Positions 1,990 through 31,404 of a DNA stretch of 64,000 nucleotides are shown here, piece by piece. Each line of letters begins with the position of its first letter. Position 1 is the stretch's first letter. The notes under the pieces are model-generated. The model saw only the letters and a list, made by a program, of their open reading frames with translations. It made no database searches and was not told the origin of the DNA. The position numbers were made by a program, and so were the translations under genes. Origin of the DNA: a virus. The stretch covers positions 37,194-101,193 of IMG/VR virus record IMGVR_UViG_3300032770_000012; one strand, given 5' to 3'.

Positions 1990-2967
1990 ATGGCCAGCGA
2001 ACCGAAAACTCTCCAAGAAGCGCTGATCTACTTCGCCGACCCGAAGAACTGCCGTGAGTACCTTGTCGCGCGGCGCTGGCCGAATGGCGTCACCTGCCCG
2101 CGCTGTGGTAGCGACAAGGTTGCATTCCTTGAAAAGTACAATCGCTGGCAGTGCAGTGCGAAAACTCATAAGGATCGGCAGTTCACTTCCAAAACCGGAA
2201 CGATCTTTGAAGACTCTCCGCTTGGCTTAGACAAATGGCTTGCAGCAATGTGGCTGCTGGTGAACTGCAAGAACGGCATCTCCAGTTACGAAGTGTCGCG
2301 CGATCTGAAAGTCTCGCAGAAATCCGCTTGGCACATGCTGCACAGAATCAGGCTCGCCACGCAGGATAAAGCGACTGGCGGGAAGCTGTCCGGGGAAGTC
2401 GAGATCGATGAGACCTTCATTGGTGGCAAAGCACGGAACATGCATAAGGGGAAACGCGAAGAGAACATCACCGGCACGGGCGGCAAAGACAAGACCGCCG
2501 TCATGGGCATGGTGGAACGCGGCGGCAAGGTTCGTTTGCAGGTAGTGGACAACCGGCGCAAGAAGGAATTGCAGAAGCAAGTTCGCGAACACGTCGAAGC
2601 TGGCGCGGCGATCTTCACTGACGAACTGAAATCCTACGACGGTCTGGAATCCGATTATCAGCACGCCGTCATCAATCACGCCGTTGAATACGCGGACGGC
2701 AACGTCCACACCAACACAATGGAGAACTTTTGGAGTCTCCTGAAGCGCGGATTGCACGGAACCTATATCAGCGTGGAACCGTTCCATCTTTTTCGTTACC
2801 TGGATGAGCAGGCATTCCGCTACAACAACCGCAAGGATAATGAGGGCGAAACGTTGACCGACAGTGACCGCTTTGATTTGGTCGTCCGACAGATCGTAGG
2901 AAAGCGCTTGACTTGGGCCGAAGTCACCGGCAAGGTGAAGGAAATTCCGCCGTCATCCGCTAACTAA
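1990..2967 (+). CDS. IS1595-family DDE transposase
   Basis: RWPNGVTCPRCG Zn ribbon, HTH, VEIDETFIGG, IFTDE, HTNTMENFWSLLKR, YLDEQAFRYN. Confidence 0.97.
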   Translation: MASEPKTLQEALIYFADPKNCREYLVARRWPNGVTCPRCGSDKVAFLEKYNRWQCSAKTHKDRQFTSKTGTIFEDSPLGLDKWLAAMWLLVNCKNGISSYEVSRDLKVSQKSAWHMLHRIRLATQDKATGGKLSGEVEIDETFIGGKARNMHKGKREENITGTGGKDKTAVMGMVERGGKVRLQVVDNRRKKELQKQVREHVEAGAAIFTDELKSYDGLESDYQHAVINHAVEYADGNVHTNTMENFWSLLKRGLHGTYISVEPFHLFRYLDEQAFRYNNRKDNEGETLTDSDRFDLVVRQIVGKRLTWAEVTGKVKEIPPSSAN

Positions 2968-3228
2968 GAAGGAATCAAAGCGCCAACAGCGCGGGAAACG
3001 CAAAAGGGTCTAGCACTCTCCAAAACGGAGTGCTGTTTTCTTGTTTGACACGATCCATCTCGGTAGTAGAATGGAGGATAGTCCTTGACTGATTGGGGAC
3101 GCCGTAGAAATTGGCGTCCCGCGCGGTAGGTAAGAAGGGCCTGAACAACCCAATCCTACCGTCCTCCCCCGCAAAAAGTCAAGCAATAAAATGGACGAGA
3201 GAACTGTGTCTGAATCGAAGGAGAGCAT

Positions 3229-25978: not shown

Positions 25979-28822
25979 ATGGCGGACTATCTTAGACCCT
26001 ACCAGCGCCGCGAACTCATCAAGGCGTACCGATCCTGGAAAGCGGGCTGCACGCGGCAACTATGGTGTCTTCCAACGGGGGCGGGGAAAACTTTATGTGC
26101 CGCGATCATCCCGCAGTGGAAGATTCTGGGAGAAAAGGGCCAATTGTGGTTCCTGGTCCACCTGGACGAACTTGTAGGCCAAGCGGAGCGCACCTTTAAA
26201 CGGATCAACCCAACGCTGCGCGTCGGAATCGAAAAAGCCGAGCAATACGCAAGTCCAGATCTGGATATTGTCATCGCGTCTATACCGAGCGTGGAGCGTA
26301 ATGACTGCGAGCGCATCCGGCGCTTTGATCGCCGCCGCATCCGAGCCGTCGTATGCGACGAAGCTCATCACCTAGTCAGCAATCAGCACCGTGCCGTCGT
26401 GACGGCCTTAGGGGTCATGAAGGGCGATCCCGATGCCGATCCTTCCCGTTTGTTCGCGGGCATCACAGCGACGCCCCTGAGGAGTTCCGGGGAGGGCCTA
26501 GAGGCATTCTTTGACGAGATCACGATCTCGGTCGGGATGCGCGAACTGATGACAACTGGCCCAGAGATCAACGGCTCGATCTATCCCTGGTTGGCGGACG
26601 CTGTTGCTTACCAGATCAACACGGACATCGATCTCGATCAGGTCAAGATTCGGGCGGGCGACTTCATGCCGAAGGATCTTGGCCGTCTCATCAATACGCC
26701 GGAGCGCAATGCTTTGGTTGTGCGCAAATACCAGGAATTCGGATTGGGTTTGCCGGGATTGGCTTTTACTTGCAGCATCGAGCATTCGCATGATCTGGCG
26801 AGTGCCTTCAATACCGAGGGTCTCCCTGCCGTCGCCGTCAGCGGCAACACCTCTCGGCGCGAGCGCGACTCGATCATCGCCCGGTACAACACTGGCGAGA
26901 TAAAGGTGCTCACCAGTTGCTCTGTATTCGTGGAGGGATTCGATCTGCCGAGAGCTACCGTGAATGTACTGGCAAAACCGACAAGGAGTAACTTGCTTTA
27001 TTGTCTTGATGGGGAAACCGAGATCTTGTCTTCCGAAGGATGGAAAACGATTGGCAATATTATTCCTGGAGATATCGTATGCGCTGTTGAGCCTGAGGAT
27101 CTTAGGGCCCAATGGGTCCCCGCCGATTCAGTAATCGAACGGATAGTTTGTCCAGAGGAGAAAATGGCGAGCCTTGTGAGCGCCCGCATGAATTTTCGGG
27201 TTTCCGATAAACATCGCATGTTGTGTTTTGATCGGCATGGGAATCATCCAGATTTCGTACTCGCAGAACAACTTGCAGTTTGCTCGCATTCTTATAAACT
27301 TCCGGTTGCCGCCATCTCTTCTTTCCCGGACGCTCCGTTGACCGATGACGAACTGCGGCTCATCGGATGGTTCTTGACCGATGGATGTCACAACCGGAAG
27401 AATAATGCCATCAACATCTGTCAATCGATCACTCATCCTGAATATATAACAGAGATCAGGTCAATCCTCGACTCCTGCCGGATTCGATACGGAGAAGCCA
27501 AGCGAACGGGTTCCAATTTTGGGTCCAAATATGCGGACCGCATTGTCTTTTACTTCAGCAAAGGAGACCCGCGCAAAATCTCTGAGCGTAACAAGCGTGG
27601 ATGGTCCTATTTATCCGCGTACCTAGACAAATCCTTTACTGATTCACTGATGGCCGTATCTGACAGACAGCTTGGAGTGATGCTTGAGGCTATGAACAAA
27701 GGCAACGGTTCTAAGTGCCAAAAGATTACTTGGACGCGGCGCAGCTACGACATTTGTTTTGGCAACAAGAGGTTGGCCGAGCGCATTCAAATCGCCTGCA
27801 TAACGCATGGATTCGCTTGCAATCTGTCGATTATTCCCGCTTCCGAAAAGCGCAAGAGCGAATTTTACATGCTCCATATCAAAAAGAGGGCCTTTAGTAT
27901 CGTTGGTGGCACAACCCTATCACATGATCGACCAACGCTTGCGTTGGCGGACCCAAAACCTTCAGAACGAGTTTGGTGCGTCTCCAATCGAATCGGCACT
28001 ATTGTGACCCGCAGGAAAGGCAAGGTCTGTATTGTCGGTAACTGCCAAATGCTCGGACGTACCTTTCGGCCTTACCCGGCACCGGAAGACTACTTACGCA
28101 TGGTCGCGGCTGGTCAGCGGCCCGATTACATCAAGCCTCATGCGATCATCCTGGATTTTGCCGACAACTGCGGTCGCCACGCCGGGGCCTTAATGCAACT
28201 TCCAACGCTCTACGGCCTGCGCCCGGACTTCAACATGCGCGGCAAGAGCGTCACCGAGGTCGTGGAGGAAATCGAGCAGTTGCTTGAAGTCCAGCCCGCC
28301 ATCGATCTTCAGCACTGCCGGTCGATCGAGGATGTCCGCTCCCAGGTCGATTCGGTCGATCTGTTTGCCGTGCCGGTGATCCCGGAGAAGATCCGCAAGC
28401 TGGCAAAGTTTCACTGGTTCCAGCTTTGGAGTGATTCCTATCAGTTGCGAACTTTGGTCGGAACTGTCGAAATTCGTCAGAACTTGCTTGGGGCCTACGA
28501 GATCTACGTATCGAGGAACGGGCAGCGCGTCTTACGTAACAGCCTCAGCGATCTGCGCGAGGCCGTTCAATTCGGAGAGAGTCTCGTACCGCCCGAGGAG
28601 CGGACATTGCATCGTAAGTCGGCCAAGTGGTTGTCAAAAGAGCCGACGTTCGCCCAATGCGATCTCTTGAGGAATAAAGATAACCGTTTCCGCGCTCGTT
28701 TTGAATCCAGCAAAGAACTCTTCCGACACGTTATGTGCGAATTTCGAAACGGAAACAAAAGCTATTCTCGTGGTGGAATTTCCAGGGCCATAGATCGGAT
28801 GAGGCTTTCCGGCTTGAAATAG
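25979..28822 (+). CDS. Superfamily 2 (DEAH, ResIII/Irc3-like) helicase with an intein
   Basis: LRPYQ, PTGAGKT, DEAHH, TATP, VEGFD; motif VI Y|CQMLGR split by the intein. Confidence 0.95.
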   Translation: MADYLRPYQRRELIKAYRSWKAGCTRQLWCLPTGAGKTLCAAIIPQWKILGEKGQLWFLVHLDELVGQAERTFKRINPTLRVGIEKAEQYASPDLDIVIASIPSVERNDCERIRRFDRRRIRAVVCDEAHHLVSNQHRAVVTALGVMKGDPDADPSRLFAGITATPLRSSGEGLEAFFDEITISVGMRELMTTGPEINGSIYPWLADAVAYQINTDIDLDQVKIRAGDFMPKDLGRLINTPERNALVVRKYQEFGLGLPGLAFTCSIEHSHDLASAFNTEGLPAVAVSGNTSRRERDSIIARYNTGEIKVLTSCSVFVEGFDLPRATVNVLAKPTRSNLLYCLDGETEILSSEGWKTIGNIIPGDIVCAVEPEDLRAQWVPADSVIERIVCPEEKMASLVSARMNFRVSDKHRMLCFDRHGNHPDFVLAEQLAVCSHSYKLPVAAISSFPDAPLTDDELRLIGWFLTDGCHNRKNNAINICQSITHPEYITEIRSILDSCRIRYGEAKRTGSNFGSKYADRIVFYFSKGDPRKISERNKRGWSYLSAYLDKSFTDSLMAVSDRQLGVMLEAMNKGNGSKCQKITWTRRSYDICFGNKRLAERIQIACITHGFACNLSIIPASEKRKSEFYMLHIKKRAFSIVGGTTLSHDRPTLALADPKPSERVWCVSNRIGTIVTRRKGKVCIVGNCQMLGRTFRPYPAPEDYLRMVAAGQRPDYIKPHAIILDFADNCGRHAGALMQLPTLYGLRPDFNMRGKSVTEVVEEIEQLLEVQPAIDLQHCRSIEDVRSQVDSVDLFAVPVIPEKIRKLAKFHWFQLWSDSYQLRTLVGTVEIRQNLLGAYEIYVSRNGQRVLRNSLSDLREAVQFGESLVPPEERTLHRKSAKWLSKEPTFAQCDLLRNKDNRFRARFESSKELFRHVMCEFRNGNKSYSRGGISRAIDRMRLSGLK
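27002..28042 (+). mobile_element. Intein (347 aa) with LAGLIDADG endonuclease, inserted in helicase motif VI
   Basis: CLDGETEILSSEGWK, SDKHRM, LIGWFLTDG, VWCVSNRIGTIVTRRKGKVCIVGN then Cys+1 (penultimate Gly). Confidence 0.93.
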
Positions 28823-28845
28823 GAGCGAACTCCTCGTCCGCTCCT
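28821..28845. terminator. Hairpin between the convergent helicase and GGY array 1
   Basis: Minus-strand 10-bp stem aggagcggac/gttcgctcct with a 5-nt loop, directly 3' of the array. Confidence 0.65.
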
Positions 28846-28850
28846 CAATT

Positions 28851-29057
28851 GGGCCGTACCGATCCATACCGCACCATTGCCGGGCGATCCTTATCCAGCC
28901 AAGCCGGATCAAGCCCGACCAAGCCATTACCACCCCCTGCCGAGCCGGGCCTGACGCCGCCCCTGCACGCCGAACCCCGACCAGCACGACCGTACCGCAG
29001 CCAACAACGCCAGCGCCTTGCCTGTCCTGATCGTGCCTTGCCACTCCCGAACGAACC
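28851..29057 (-). repeat. GGY-NN pentamer array 1 (putative guide-like ncRNA)
   Basis: Minus strand reads ggttc gttcg ggagt ggcaa ggcac gatca ggaca ggcaa ggcgc ... ggctt ggtcg ggctt gatcc ggctt ggctg gataa ggatc ... ggtgc ggtat ggatc ggtac ggccc; starts 15 nt after the RAMP-like stop. Confidence 0.85.
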
Positions 29058-29071
29058 ACGGTTTATCCCGT

Positions 29072-29689
29072 TTACTCTACGACAAATTTGACTACCTGAA
29101 ATCTCCCAAAGCTGGGCCGGAAATCTCCGACGCCGACCAGACGTCCAGCGGATTGGAATACCTCGTTCAACAACTGATCCGAGATGTACTCCGGTAGTAC
29201 GCACTCTAGTCTGACCTTGATCCTCCAGCCAATCTGCATTGCTGGCCTGCTCCGCGTGATCGCGGACTTTTGAATCACTACTCGCCTACGGTCTAGGTAG
29301 TCCCAGTCCTTGACGCCCAACGAGCAGTACTCGTCCAGCGCGATGATGCCAGCCTTGAAGATGTCCATGGCGGACTTGCGCGGAGACCTCGGGTCCTGCT
29401 TGAATTTGGCGGCACCGATGATGGACATTCTGAAATACTCGCTCGGGATCGCCAGATTTCCTTTGGAATCGCGGTAGACGTAACTCTCGGTGTCGTCGGT
29501 CTTCTTGGCCTTGCTGCCTTTGGAGGCTCTGGCTTTTTCCTCCACTCCTTCCACGCTCCATCGATGGAACAGGAATGGGCTGGTCCCAACAATTTCGGCC
29601 TGGACCACATAGGGTTCGCTGAATGAAATGATCTTGCCGCCATCATTGCTGACAGGGGCCAAAACGGTGGCCTGATTTGATTTTGCCAT
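29072..29689 (-). CDS. Stand-alone Cas7/RAMP-like protein
   Basis: RRM beta1 VVQAEIVGTSPFLFH, LAIPSEYFRMSIIGAA (cf. IPGSSLKG helix), C-terminal Gly-rich loop AGRLVGVGDFRPSFGRFQV; GAGG RBS. Confidence 0.78.
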   Translation of the reverse strand: MAKSNQATVLAPVSNDGGKIISFSEPYVVQAEIVGTSPFLFHRWSVEGVEEKARASKGSKAKKTDDTESYVYRDSKGNLAIPSEYFRMSIIGAAKFKQDPRSPRKSAMDIFKAGIIALDEYCSLGVKDWDYLDRRRVVIQKSAITRSRPAMQIGWRIKVRLECVLPEYISDQLLNEVFQSAGRLVGVGDFRPSFGRFQVVKFVVE

Positions 29690-29708
29690 GTTTATACCTC
29701 GTATACCG

Positions 29709-29750
29709 ATACTACTTTAGTCTTGCAGTATAGTCAAGACTTGATATACT
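29709..29750. promoter_or_regulatory. Overlapping divergent promoters with operator-like inverted repeat
   Basis: Minus: TTGACT (29737-32)-17-TAGTAT. Plus: TTGCAG (29723)-16-TATACT with extended TG. IR AGTCTTG-N9-CAAGACT at 29719-29741. Confidence 0.7.
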
Positions 29751-29756
29751 GTTCAC

Positions 29757-29918
29757 ATGAAAGATTCGGATCGAGAGTTTTTGCACTTTCTGATACCAAA
29801 AAGGCTCCTCGAACGGATCGAGGAGTTTCGGTTTAAGAATCGTTTCCCATCAAGAGCGAGAGCGATCACTTGGCTCTTAGACTGGGCTCTATCCAACAAT
29901 CCTAAACCCGAACAGTGA
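29757..29918 (+). CDS. Ribbon-helix-helix (CopG/Arc-like) regulator, 53 aa
   Basis: Manual translation MKDSDREFLHFLIPKRLLERIEEFRFKNRFPSRARAITWLLDWALSNNPKPEQ; probably leaderless. Confidence 0.8.
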   Translation: MKDSDREFLHFLIPKRLLERIEEFRFKNRFPSRARAITWLLDWALSNNPKPEQ

Positions 29919-29938
29919 TTGATTTCGTGGACCGCCGA

Positions 29939-30190
29939 GGTTTACAGCGCTGCGGCAGTGCGGGGCGTAGGTTAGGCCGTCCATGGTACGTAAACGGCAT
30001 GGTCGTCTGATGCGAGGTCTGGCGGGGCGGTCTGAGATTAGGTTCGTTGCGGTCGTGCGTGGAAATCAGCGGTAAGGCGGGCAGATGTTGGGTACGCTAA
30101 GGCAAGGCTCTGTATGGCCCGGTATTGTTCGCAATGGTTATCCGGGGAATGGCAGACATAGGCTGTGTTAGCAGTGGCATGGAAAGGTCT
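29939..30190 (+). repeat. GGY-NN pentamer array 2 (putative guide-like ncRNA)
   Basis: 29996-30190 is 39 consecutive in-phase 5-mers: 19 begin GGY, 3 GGA, 6 TGY; further units upstream with two 1-nt slips. Confidence 0.88.
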
Positions 30191-30258
30191 ATCGTAACTA
30201 CTCGCGCGGCGGGATATCACGCGCCATTGATAGAATCAAGTTGGCGAAGGAAGGCTAG

Positions 30259-30459
30259 ATGATCCGCCACTTTCTCGCTCAAAACTCGTGCTACCGTCGC
30301 TGGAGCGGAGGAATCTGGTTCTACGTCAATCCAGAACCATTCCCCTATATGTTCTTCTGGCAAAGAGAGAAACCGAGCCACATCGAGCGTCTAATCGAAG
30401 TCGAAGCCGATGGCGTGGATATAACCTGGATTTACAAGGGAGTGATTCCGCAGGACTAA
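30259..30459 (+). CDS. Hypothetical protein
   Basis: AAGGAAGG RBS; 66 aa. Confidence 0.55.
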   Translation: MIRHFLAQNSCYRRWSGGIWFYVNPEPFPYMFFWQREKPSHIERLIEVEADGVDITWIYKGVIPQD

Positions 30460-30668
30460 CTGCGGGTCTTCTTCCGCCCTTTCCGGCGCTCCGCGATGGT
30501 CCTCATTGCCTTCGCGAAGGCCGCCCTCTTTGCTTCCTTGCCGCCCTTGGCTAAACCGCGTTTGATCTTTGATGGAGTCGCGGCCCCGAATTTACCCTCG
30601 GTCCCGCGCCGTTTCATAGAAGCCTTAGCCCGCTTTAGAAAATAACCGCTCTTCTCTCTTTTTGCCAT
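30456..30668 (-). CDS. Small highly basic protein (possible virion DNA-condensing protein)
   Basis: K/R-rich 70 aa; AGGAGG RBS. Confidence 0.7.
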   Translation of the reverse strand: MAKREKSGYFLKRAKASMKRRGTEGKFGAATPSKIKRGLAKGGKEAKRAAFAKAMRTIAERRKGRKKTRS

Positions 30669-31404
30669 CTGTCCTACCTCCTTGTGTCCTACCGAACCAA
30701 GCCGACATGCATCTCTTAGAGCAAAAATCAGCGAATCCTTTATGCTTTGATCGCTTCGCCATGAATGTTACGCCGCATTCAAAACATTGCATAATACTGC
30801 GCGCTTTAATGCCTTTGGCCTTTCCGCTGCACTTTTTCGAACAGTGCATTTGCGCCCTTTTTGGGGCCATGAATTCGCGGTTGCATATTGGACAGAGTTT
30901 TGGAAATTTAGGCTTTCTGTGCGCCCTGAGCAGGTACCCCACCTTTGGATGTTCCAAGACATGGCAATCAACGCAGAGCAGTTCGCCGTTACTAATATCG
31001 AACCTTAGTTCGGGGTGAAACGCCCACGGCTGCTTATGGTGGGCATGCATTTCGATATCGGATCGACCGCATCGAACGCACTCACGGTCTCGCTCCGTAA
31101 CCGCTCGCACCCACCGTTTGTATTCCGCCGTGTGACCAGTAGGACGATTAGTTGAACGTTTACGGCTAGCGTACATGCAAGCACGGGAACAGAACTGCTT
31201 TCTTTCTTGACCCTTCGTGTAGACCTTGATCTTTCCACACTGTTGGCATCTTAAGAACGTTATCGTAACCGTGCGTTTTTTGTGTTTGCTTGAACACTTC
31301 CGCGAACAGAACCGGGCACCATCAGCAATTGCGGACGGGTACCGCACAACTGTTGTGCCACAAGCGTCACATTGGATCGCTACGGCTTTTCCGCCCTTTG
31401 CCAT
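30625..31404 (-). CDS. HNH endonuclease with multiple Zn-finger repeats
   Basis: CVRCG...HAHHKQPW...DISNGELLCVDCH; four CxxC...(F/H)CSxxC repeats. Confidence 0.9.
   Translation of the reverse strand: MAKGGKAVAIQCDACGTTVVRYPSAIADGARFCSRKCSSKHKKRTVTITFLRCQQCGKIKVYTKGQERKQFCSRACMYASRKRSTNRPTGHTAEYKRWVRAVTERDRECVRCGRSDIEMHAHHKQPWAFHPELRFDISNGELLCVDCHVLEHPKVGYLLRAHRKPKFPKLCPICNREFMAPKRAQMHCSKKCSGKAKGIKARSIMQCFECGVTFMAKRSKHKGFADFCSKRCMSAWFGRTQGGRTDGKKREERLFSKAG

What the first reader, a model, noticed from the sequence alone, without database searches (positions are those of the whole stretch)
28821..29071. Array 1 is co-transcribed with the RAMP-like gene, broken into phased blocks and capped by a 3' hairpin
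Seen: the array starts 15 nt after the stop codon. In-phase runs of about 9, 8 and 5 units are separated by 4- or 6-nt slips, and a 10-bp stem follows 5 nt after the last unit. Inference: the slips mark either several separate guides or decay of an older guide, and the hairpin defines or protects the RNA 3' end while also terminating the convergent helicase operon.
Basis: partly seen in the sequence, partly recalled or inferred. Interest (0 to 1): 0.7.

Follow-up and report, generated by a model that had tools for sequence, protein, structure and literature searches.

The report
VIPR guide-RNA array in a phage
The five-base-periodic tract is a real guide-RNA array of a VIPR system, a phage RNA-guided DNA silencer related to CRISPR and first described in 2026 preprints, so it is a new example of a known kind.

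Summary
On the minus strand, 29057-28851 holds 41 GGY-NN pentamers. Their score lies about 20 sd above dinucleotide shuffles. The tract starts 14 nt after the stop of a 205-aa gene and ends 5 nt before a 10-bp hairpin.

The robust phasing is 9, 17 and 15 units, separated by two single extra bases.

The 205-aa protein is a Vipr. It matches the solved SUSP1 Vipr (PDB 36pp, E 9e-10), keeps most of the GGY-binding residues, and folds like Cas7/Csm3.

In 87 related loci, 125 of 128 arrays lie on the vipr strand right beside the gene. One-base insertions outnumber one-base deletions 46 to 7. The median block is 16 units. Guides from some loci match genes of other loci by the published NNx (skip-one) code over 9-16 units.

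Array 1 is therefore most likely three tail-less guides made from the vipr transcript. I found no target for them. The hairpin is a generic, non-conserved end structure without a U-tract.

VIPR was published in 2026, and this scan has already met it in at least 17 other genomes.

The parts
28851..29057 (-). vrRNA array 1. It holds 41 GGYNN pentamers (24 strict GGY) in three in-phase blocks: 29057-29013 (9 units), 29011-28927 (17 units) and 28925-28851 (15 units). Single extra T bases at 29012 and 28926 separate the blocks.
   Evidence: The parse is stable for slip penalties 2.5-7 and the score is about 20 sd above dinucleotide shuffles.
29058..29071 (-). 14-nt spacer between the vipr stop codon and the first pentamer.
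   Evidence: No promoter-like or terminator-like site was called here on the minus strand.
29072..29689 (-). vipr gene, 205 aa. It encodes a stand-alone RAMP/Cas7-like protein with the G-loop GVGDFRPSFGRF.
   Evidence: The family profile hits PDB 36pp 'SUSP1 Vipr protein' at E 9e-10. The AlphaFold model has pLDDT 94.8. Foldseek top hits are Cas7/Csm3/gRAMP with probability 1.00. It also matches phrog_4652.
28821..28845 (-). 10-bp stem with a 5-nt loop, 5 nt after the last pentamer. It overlaps the TAG stop codon of the convergent helicase gene and is not followed by a U-tract.
   Evidence: The energy is -17.9 kcal/mol on minus-strand RNA (one G-U pair). On plus-strand RNA the same position is an A-C mismatch.
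29709..29755 (-). Two overlapping sigma-70-like promoter matches upstream of vipr. They lie in the divergent intergenic region, which also carries inverted repeats.
   Evidence: Each has 9 of 12 matches. This is a consensus match only.
29757..29918 (+). 53-aa gene for a putative small transcriptional repressor (ribbon-helix-helix by my reading of the sequence only), divergent from vipr. It is a candidate accessory (vap-like) regulator.
   Evidence: It matches phrog_4738 'transcriptional repressor' at E 8e-6. tblastn found no homologue in the 86 related loci.
29929..30190 (+). vrRNA array 2, 52 pentamers in blocks of 8[A]5[C]39. The 39-unit block (29996-30190) has no phase break. The array is G-rich on the plus strand, opposite to vipr and downstream of the 53-aa repressor-like gene.
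   Evidence: Only 3 of 128 arrays in the clade lie opposite to vipr.
25979..28822 (+). Convergent 947-aa SF2 helicase gene. The ResIII/DEAD/Helicase_C domains lie in residues 5-341 and the C-terminal 600 aa have no match. Its stop codon overlaps the hairpin.
30172..30258 (+). Short reading frame that duplicates the helicase C-terminal tail: YSRGGISRAIDR, 13 of 18 identical and 18 of 18 similar, with different synonymous codons. It lies right after array 2 and its stop abuts the ATG of the next ORF.
   Evidence: The matching helicase stretch is 28757-28810.

Best explanation
Array 1 is the downstream vrRNA array of a VIPR (Viral Interference Programmable Repeat) system carried by a 101-kb phage with direct terminal repeats.

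Inferred mechanism, from the published system:
- The array is transcribed on the minus strand as the 3' part of the vipr mRNA, from the promoter region near 29709-29755.
- Vipr protomers bind one GGYNN pentamer each. They sequester GGY and present the NN pairs.
- The NN string reads double-stranded DNA by the NNx (skip-one) code and silences a gene of a competing mobile element.

The two single-base phase slips most likely separate three head-to-tail, tail-less guides of 9, 17 and 15 repeats. This corresponds to the 'staggered' array architecture in the VIPR paper.

The terminal hairpin is most likely a generic transcript-end structure shared with the convergent helicase gene. It is not a VIPR-specific handle.

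Shown here: the periodic array, the identity of the protein, the conserved gene-array linkage, the +1 slip bias, and use of the NNx code within this clade. Inferred: transcription, RNA processing, the three-guide partition, and the role of the hairpin. Unknown: the targets.
For: Protein:
- PDB 36pp SUSP1 Vipr, E 9e-10 over 168 of 201 profile positions.
- Most of the residues the structure paper names for GGY binding are kept: H17/H42, R138/R148, D177/D189, R179/R191 and E71/E84 are identical and W178 is F190, while M72 is Y85 (alignment, conserved columns, paper).
- The model has pLDDT 94.8 and a Cas7/Csm3 fold.

Array:
- 41 GGYNN units with no information in the NN positions.
- No excess RNA structure inside the array (z = -0.12), as expected for protein-bound RNA.

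Linkage:
- All 14 IMG/VR relatives with enough flanking sequence have G-periodic arrays beside the gene.
- Over 87 loci, 125 of 128 arrays are on the vipr strand. The median gap is 33 nt downstream or 54 nt upstream of the gene.

Blocks:
- There are 46 +1 slips against 7 -1 slips, flanked by intact units, and the inserted base can be any nucleotide. The median block is 16 units. The published guide range is 9-16 repeats.

Code:
- Cross-locus NNx matches lie far above the shuffled null (maximum 16). Examples are 30 of 32 bases over units 1-16 (score 27). In the three cases checked against a long forward ORF the skipped base falls on the wobble position. One guide hits the vipr gene of rivals.

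Self-targeting:
- None found, as published for other VIPRs.
Against: - There are no transcript data, so co-transcription, processing sites and RNA ends are inferred.
- No target was found for any block. The own genome and 86 related loci gave only chance-level scores.
- Six exact-seed scans of IMG/VR and one scan of the metagenomes gave no hit that extended to 80% or more of a block.
- 41% of the units are not strict GGY.
- Slips are not the only guide delimiter in the clade. A 30-unit in-phase block matched its target only over units 1-16, and in-phase blocks of 47-117 units exist.
- The first block has only 9 units and could be a remnant.
- The VIPR type cannot be assigned from the text of the paper, and the 'staggered' architecture was not among those the authors confirmed by RNA sequencing.
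Confidence: 0.85

Rival explanations
1. Array 1 is a decaying relic. It would be an old guide array that is still transcribed but no longer specifies targets, with the slips and degenerate units being mutational damage.
For: 17 of 41 units are not strict GGY. No target was found in any collection searched. Much cleaner arrays exist in relatives, for example the 60-unit array in L002 with no slip.
Against: The GGY content of 59% is typical of the clade (65%) and equals that of a guide with a validated 30/32 target match (10 of 16 units). Random decay should give -1 and +1 slips about equally, but the clade shows 7 against 46. Both slips here are +1 and sit between well-formed units. vipr itself is intact and highly conserved.
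Confidence: 0.1
2. Array 1 is one long guide of 41 units, about 205 nt. A single Vipr filament would run across the two 6-nt steps.
For: There is no tail, ribozyme or conserved punctuation motif between the blocks. In-phase blocks of up to 117 units exist in relatives.
Against: Matches to targets in the clade span 9-16 units and stop abruptly even where the block continues in phase. Published guides have 9-16 repeats, and the filament binds one protomer per 5-nt repeat, so a 6-nt step would break the register.
Confidence: 0.04
3. The tract acts on the other strand, as a C-rich and G-poor 3' untranslated region of the helicase mRNA (a Rho-loading site). It would insulate the cassette from incoming transcription. 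This was my first idea.
For: The plus strand is 44% C and 22% G. Array 2 is C-rich towards incoming minus-strand transcription.
Against: This does not explain the strict 5-nt phase, the GGY/NN information pattern, or the conserved linkage to the strand of a Vipr gene in 125 of 128 arrays. Many of those arrays are 5' leaders of vipr with no convergent gene. At most it is a side effect.
Confidence: 0.02
4. The region is translated as a protein.
For: Three ORFs of 118-141 aa overlap the tract.
Against: None of the three has a Pfam match. A 5-nt period with two frame-shifting slips and information-free NN positions cannot encode a conserved protein. Related arrays differ freely in length, from 10 to 529 units.
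Confidence: 0.01

Closest known systems
VIPR systems with 'staggered' tail-less vrRNA arrays (bioRxiv 10.64898/2026.04.26.720920, fig. S18 legend)
   Same: A stand-alone Vipr gene flanked by long uninterrupted GGYNN arrays in which one guide abuts the next. There is no conserved tail or ribozyme between guides, and the system is phage-borne.
   Different: The figure itself is not available, so the equivalence rests on its legend. Here the visible punctuation is a single extra base (a 6-nt step). One array lies on the strand opposite to vipr, behind a small repressor-like gene. This architecture was not among those the authors confirmed by RNA sequencing.
Type II VIPR of Escherichia phage SUSP1 (Vipr structure PDB 36pp; bioRxiv 10.64898/2026.04.26.720927)
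   Same: A homologous Vipr of about 200 aa in which most of the named GGY-binding residues are kept. The GGY/NN pentamer guides lie upstream and downstream of the gene, and an adjacent small DNA-binding accessory gene is present.
   Different: Identity is low (E 9e-10; not computed). SUSP1 vrRNAs are discrete units of about 100 nt with 9-16 repeats, each capped by a conserved pseudoknot tail. Here there is no conserved tail, only one generic hairpin at the end of a 41-unit array. W178 is replaced by F, M72 by Y, and the bundle residues K33 and R39 are not conserved.
Class 1 CRISPR Cas7 backbone (Csm3, Cas7-11, type VII Cas7)
   Same: An RRM core, a glycine-rich loop and a thumb. The protein polymerises along a guide RNA with a fixed nucleotide step. 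Foldseek probability is 1.00 and TM-score about 0.5.
   Different: The step is 5 nt with three bases sequestered, rather than 6 nt with one base flipped. There is no CRISPR repeat-spacer array, no other cas genes and no adaptation module. Sequence identity is 10-15%.

Membership tests
VIPR system | The Vipr protein is homologous to characterised Vipr proteins. | tested here: met
   A profile of the 205-aa family hits PDB 36pp_D 'SUSP1 Vipr protein' at E 9.2e-10, covering profile positions 29-196.
VIPR system | A minimal RAMP fold: RRM core, G-loop and thumb, without a second RRM. | tested here: met
   The model has pLDDT 94.8 and pTM 0.86. The best PDB folds are Csm3, type VII Cas7 and Cas7-11, with probability 1.00. 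The G-loop GVGDFRPSFGRF is nearly invariant in 70 sequences.
VIPR system | The residues that read G1, G2 and Y3 are conserved (SUSP1 H17, R138, D177, W178, R179, E71, M72). | tested here: met
   The alignment, mapped to window residues, gives H42, R148, D189, F190 (an aromatic residue in place of W), R191 and E84, with M72 replaced by Y85. D189, R148 and R191 are 90% or more conserved. The roles of these residues come from the paper.
VIPR system | Tandem GGYNN (YNNGG) repeats lie next to vipr, with conserved GGY and hypervariable NN. | tested here: met
   41 units start 14 nt after the stop codon. Information per position is 1.56, 0.90, 0.41, 0.00 and 0.05 bits. The same holds for 3,684 units of the clade.
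VIPR system | Guides recognise DNA by the NNx (1-nt skip) code. | tested here: inconclusive
   Met for the clade: cross-locus matches reach 30 of 32 bases, against a shuffled-null maximum score of 16, and in the three cases checked the skipped base falls on the wobble position of a long forward ORF. Not shown for this locus: no target was found for array 1 or array 2.
VIPR system | The vrRNA is expressed and co-purifies with Vipr. | not testable with these tools
   This needs small-RNA sequencing or a pull-down. Only the geometry argues for co-transcription.
VIPR system | An accessory vap gene is present. | tested here: inconclusive
   A 53-aa repressor-like gene (phrog_4738) lies divergent from vipr, but it has no homologue in 86 related loci. 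SF2 helicase genes neighbour vipr in 27 related loci and, convergently, here.
Type II VIPR (SUSP1 / P. fulva clade) | Each vrRNA ends in a conserved structured 3' tail (a pseudoknot). | tested here: not met
   No repeated tail lies between the blocks, and the junctions are single bases. The 3' flanks of arrays in the clade are unrelated hairpins, ribosome-binding sites or gene starts. Rfam found nothing.
CRISPR-Cas | A repeat-spacer array together with a cas gene set. | tested here: not met
   No repeats of about 30 nt are present. The only Cas-like hit to any of the three proteins scanned in PADLOC is the generic helicase core.

The most novel reading that the evidence does not exclude
In this widespread tail-less Vipr clade, a single extra nucleotide (a 6-nt unit) would be programmed punctuation that sets the register where one guide ends and the next begins. 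Such arrays would then need no handle, ribozyme or pseudoknot, and a generic terminal hairpin would replace the type II tail at the last guide. Array 1 would be three such guides. This guide-delimiting rule has not been demonstrated experimentally for VIPR.
Probability: 0.3. Interest if true: 0.5.

Novelty: new member of a known kind. Interest (0 to 1): 0.3.

Why it matters

The comparative by-products bear on questions the VIPR preprints leave open, namely how tail-less arrays are divided into guides. These by-products are the strong +1 slip bias, guide footprints of about 9-16 units that begin at array starts, and guides aimed at rival vipr and helicase genes. The kind of system itself is already described, so the finding is confirmatory rather than surprising.

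Tried and rejected
1. My first idea was that the C-rich plus strand is a Rho-type insulator. I dropped it once the linkage to the gene's strand in relatives appeared.

2. I tested whether arrays 1 and 2 are inverted repeats of a transposon-like element. Only short, non-collinear matches were found.

3. No helicase relatives were found in IMG/VR.

4. Target searches:
- The own genome and 86 loci gave chance-level scores.
- Exact NNx seeds of 9 units from blocks 1 and 3 gave 0 hits.
- 8-unit seeds from block 2 (units 1-8 and 9-16), block 3 (units 8-15) and array 2 (units 1-8) gave 12-53 hits each, all with chance-level extension.
- A 10-unit seed in the metagenomes hit two homologous antitoxin-like ORFs, but out of codon register and with no extension.

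5. The best lead is block 2, units 9-17. They match 18 of 18 bases, in codon register, to codons for VGGHPSRVK in an ORF of about 1,616 aa on eight marine IMG/VR contigs (three further homologous contigs match only the 8-unit seed). Given the number of seeds tried, I count this as compatible with chance.

6. Rfam found no ribozyme or known RNA. PADLOC had nothing for Vipr.

8. The VIPR type (I-VII) could not be assigned, because the paper's figures and data tables are not held.
Full report
**What is there**

The window is part of a complete 101,193-bp IMG/VR virus record with direct terminal repeats. The region 28821-29071 shows a very strong 5-nt periodicity of C on the plus strand, which is G on the minus strand. 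Fourier power at period 5 reaches 7.2, against a genome median of 0.69 and a 99.9th percentile of 5.1. Only one other tract in the whole genome behaves this way, at window 29929-30190 with the opposite strand polarity.

A dynamic-programming parse of the minus strand gives 41 GGYNN pentamers from 29057 to 28851. The score is 67.5, against 10.0 +/- 2.9 (maximum 26.5) for 500 dinucleotide shuffles. Information content per position is 1.56, 0.90, 0.41, 0.00 and 0.05 bits, so GGY is conserved and NN is free.

The first unit begins 14 nt after the TAA stop of the 205-aa ORF at 29072-29689 on the minus strand. Five nt after the last unit lies a 10-bp stem with a 5-nt loop (28845-28821). Its energy is -17.9 kcal/mol on the minus-strand RNA, with one G-U pair that becomes an A-C mismatch on the plus strand. 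The stem overlaps the stop codon of the convergent 947-aa gene.

**Block structure**

For slip penalties from 2.5 to 7 the array is 9, 17 and 15 units, separated by one extra T at 29012 and one at 28926. Only at a very permissive penalty does the last block break into 8 + 2 + 5 through a compensating 4-nt/6-nt pair. The counts '9, 8 and 5' and the '4- or 6-nt slips' are only partly right, and the 17-unit block was missed.

**What the genes are**

Pfam has nothing for it and PHROGs gives phrog_4652, of unknown function.
- *Match to Vipr.* A profile of 13 homologues hits one solved structure, PDB 36pp 'SUSP1 Vipr protein', at E 9.2e-10.
- *Published system.* The literature search found three 2026 preprints on VIPR (Viral Interference Programmable Repeat) systems. 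They describe a small, stand-alone, Cas7-like Vipr protein that polymerises on vrRNAs made of 9-16 GGY/NN pentamers. GGY is sequestered, and the NN pairs read double-stranded DNA while skipping every third base. The result is transcriptional silencing of competing phages and satellites.
- *GGY-binding residues.* Most of the residues the structure paper names are kept here. H17, R138, D177, R179 and E71 correspond to H42, R148, D189, R191 and E84, W178 is replaced by F190, and M72 by Y85.
- *Fold.* An AlphaFold model (pLDDT 94.8) has its best PDB matches among Csm3, type VII Cas7 and Cas7-11, with probability 1.00.
- *The convergent 947-aa gene.* It is an SF2 helicase, with ResIII/DEAD/Helicase_C domains in its first 341 residues.

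**Comparative evidence**

Fifteen IMG/VR loci and 71 loci from genome assemblies spanning many phyla encode proteins mostly 50-66% identical to this Vipr (a few weaker or partial matches down to 23%).

- All 14 IMG/VR loci with enough flanking sequence have G-periodic arrays beside the gene.
- Over all 87 loci I parsed 128 arrays. Of these, 125 lie on the vipr strand, split equally between upstream (62) and downstream (63).
- The median distance from the gene is 54 nt upstream and 33 nt downstream. Upstream arrays run right up to the vipr ribosome-binding site.
- The strand-specific, abutting arrangement is the main argument for co-transcription. In the window there is also no promoter-like or terminator-like site between the stop codon and the array, and two promoter-like sites lie upstream of vipr. 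No RNA data exist, so this remains an inference.

- Among 85 phase breaks in the clade, 46 are single-base insertions and 7 are single-base deletions. The inserted base can be any nucleotide, and the neighbouring units are usually well-formed GGY. Random decay should not produce this asymmetry.
- The median block is 16 units (interquartile range 12-23). The published guide length is 9-16 repeats.
- Array 1's GGY content (59%) is typical of the clade (65%).

To test whether the published code applies in this clade, I searched every block against all held loci as an NNx pattern.

- Several matches lie far above the shuffled null, whose maximum score is 16. Examples are L048 units 1-16 against L045 (30 of 32 bases) and L035 units 1-16 against L054 (30 of 32).
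- A group of guides matches the helicase gene of L044, and an L016 guide matches the vipr genes of L014 and L071.
- In the three cases checked against a long forward ORF (L045, L044, L050), the skipped base falls on the wobble position.
- The matched footprints are 9-16 units and often begin at unit 1 of a block. In all of those cases the block start is also the array start.
- Footprints can end inside a longer in-phase block. Slips are therefore a frequent guide boundary but not the only one, and no validated guide yet starts at a slip.

Blocks of 9, 17 and 15 units thus fit three guides, in line with the 'staggered arrays' mentioned in the VIPR paper. The authors did not confirm that architecture by RNA sequencing.

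**The hairpin**

It is real, but it is not a VIPR-specific cap.

- Type II vrRNAs each end in a conserved pseudoknot tail. Here nothing lies between the blocks.
- The 3' flanks of arrays in the clade are unrelated. Some are obvious intrinsic terminators, some are G+C-rich hairpins, and some run straight into the next gene.
- 46% of downstream arrays have a strong fold within 45 nt after the array, against 28% of upstream arrays.
- The window's hairpin has no U-tract on either strand and was not called a terminator.

It may still stabilise the RNA 3' end and mark the end of the convergent helicase transcript. This is plausible and untested.

**Targets**

None was found.

- Own genome: chance-level scores only, as the paper also reports for other systems.
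- Related loci: chance-level scores.
- No guide from the related loci hits this phage above the null, apart from one low-complexity artefact.
- Exact-seed scans of IMG/VR and the metagenomes gave no hit that extended across a block.
- The best lead is units 9-17 of block 2. They match 18 of 18 bases, in codon register, in an ORF of about 1,616 aa on eight marine phage contigs. This is compatible with chance given the number of seeds tried.

**Other readings**

- *Translation.* It is excluded by the 5-nt period, the frame-breaking slips, the free NN positions and the lack of any family match for the overlapping ORFs.
- *Rho-loading tract.* My initial idea does not explain the phase or the conserved linkage to the vipr strand.
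- *Known RNA families.* Rfam has no match.

**Verdict**

This is a genuine VIPR locus: a new member of a known kind, in a tail-less 'staggered-array' clade that is very widespread. The profile found 2,856 representative clusters at E <= 0.001.

The scan has already met VIPR in at least 17 other genomes, with the same conclusion. The unit counts and the special role given to the hairpin were not.

Noticed in passing
window 28757-28810 and 30193-30246: The last ~20 codons of the helicase (KSYSRGGISRAIDRMRLS) are repeated as protein (13/18 identical, 18/18 similar, E 3e-9) right after array 2. Nearly every synonymous position differs. The second copy ends in a TAG that abuts the ATG of the next ORF (30259-30459). 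The whole VIPR cassette (28823-30190) therefore looks like an insertion into the 3' end of the helicase gene that brought its own replacement tail. An HNH endonuclease gene lies 370 bp further on (30625-31404, minus strand).
   Followed up: partly
window 29929-30190: Array 2 is G-rich on the strand opposite to vipr and lies downstream of the divergent 53-aa repressor-like gene. Only 3 of 128 arrays in 87 loci have this polarity. Its 39-unit block has no phase break but only 19 strict GGY units.
   Followed up: partly
L035-L061, L070-L072 and others (for example L044:4221-5195): In 27 of 86 related loci tblastn finds an SF2 helicase gene (25-33% identical over up to residues 1-342) beside vipr, in most of them downstream on the same strand. 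Guides of sister loci match these helicase genes (L047, L041 and L051 against L044:4296-4330). One guide of L016 matches the vipr genes of L014 and L071. These look like rival VIPR loci targeting each other.
   Followed up: partly
L128 (GenBank OR003939.1, Phage DSL-LC04) 2186-2479 and 2501-3118: The gene annotated 'helix-turn-helix transcriptional regulator' is a Vipr homologue (55% identity). The unannotated 320-bp gap upstream of it is a 58-unit GGYNN array. The public annotation is therefore misleading.
   Followed up: yes
L076:3905-6574 (contig of a Bathyarchaeia MAG): A GGYNN array of 529 units (2.7 kb) in 23 in-phase blocks lies downstream of a Vipr homologue. It is by far the largest array seen. 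L069 has a single in-phase block of 117 units.
   Followed up: no
L182-L185 and L187-L193 (for example L188:7064-7090): Units 9-17 of array 1 block 2 match 18/18 bases, in codon register (skip = wobble), to codons for VGGHPSRVK in a conserved ORF of about 1,616 aa on eight marine IMG/VR contigs. Three further homologous contigs match only the 8-unit seed. The ORF has no Pfam match and no homologue in this phage. Statistically this is compatible with chance.
   Followed up: partly
window 29690-29756: The divergent intergenic region between vipr and the 53-aa repressor-like gene carries nested inverted repeats (AGTCTTG...CAAGACT and CAGTATA...TATACTG) that overlap the promoter-like hexamers. The ATG of the small gene has no obvious Shine-Dalgarno sequence, so its mRNA may be leaderless. 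This looks like an autoregulated switch.
   Followed up: no
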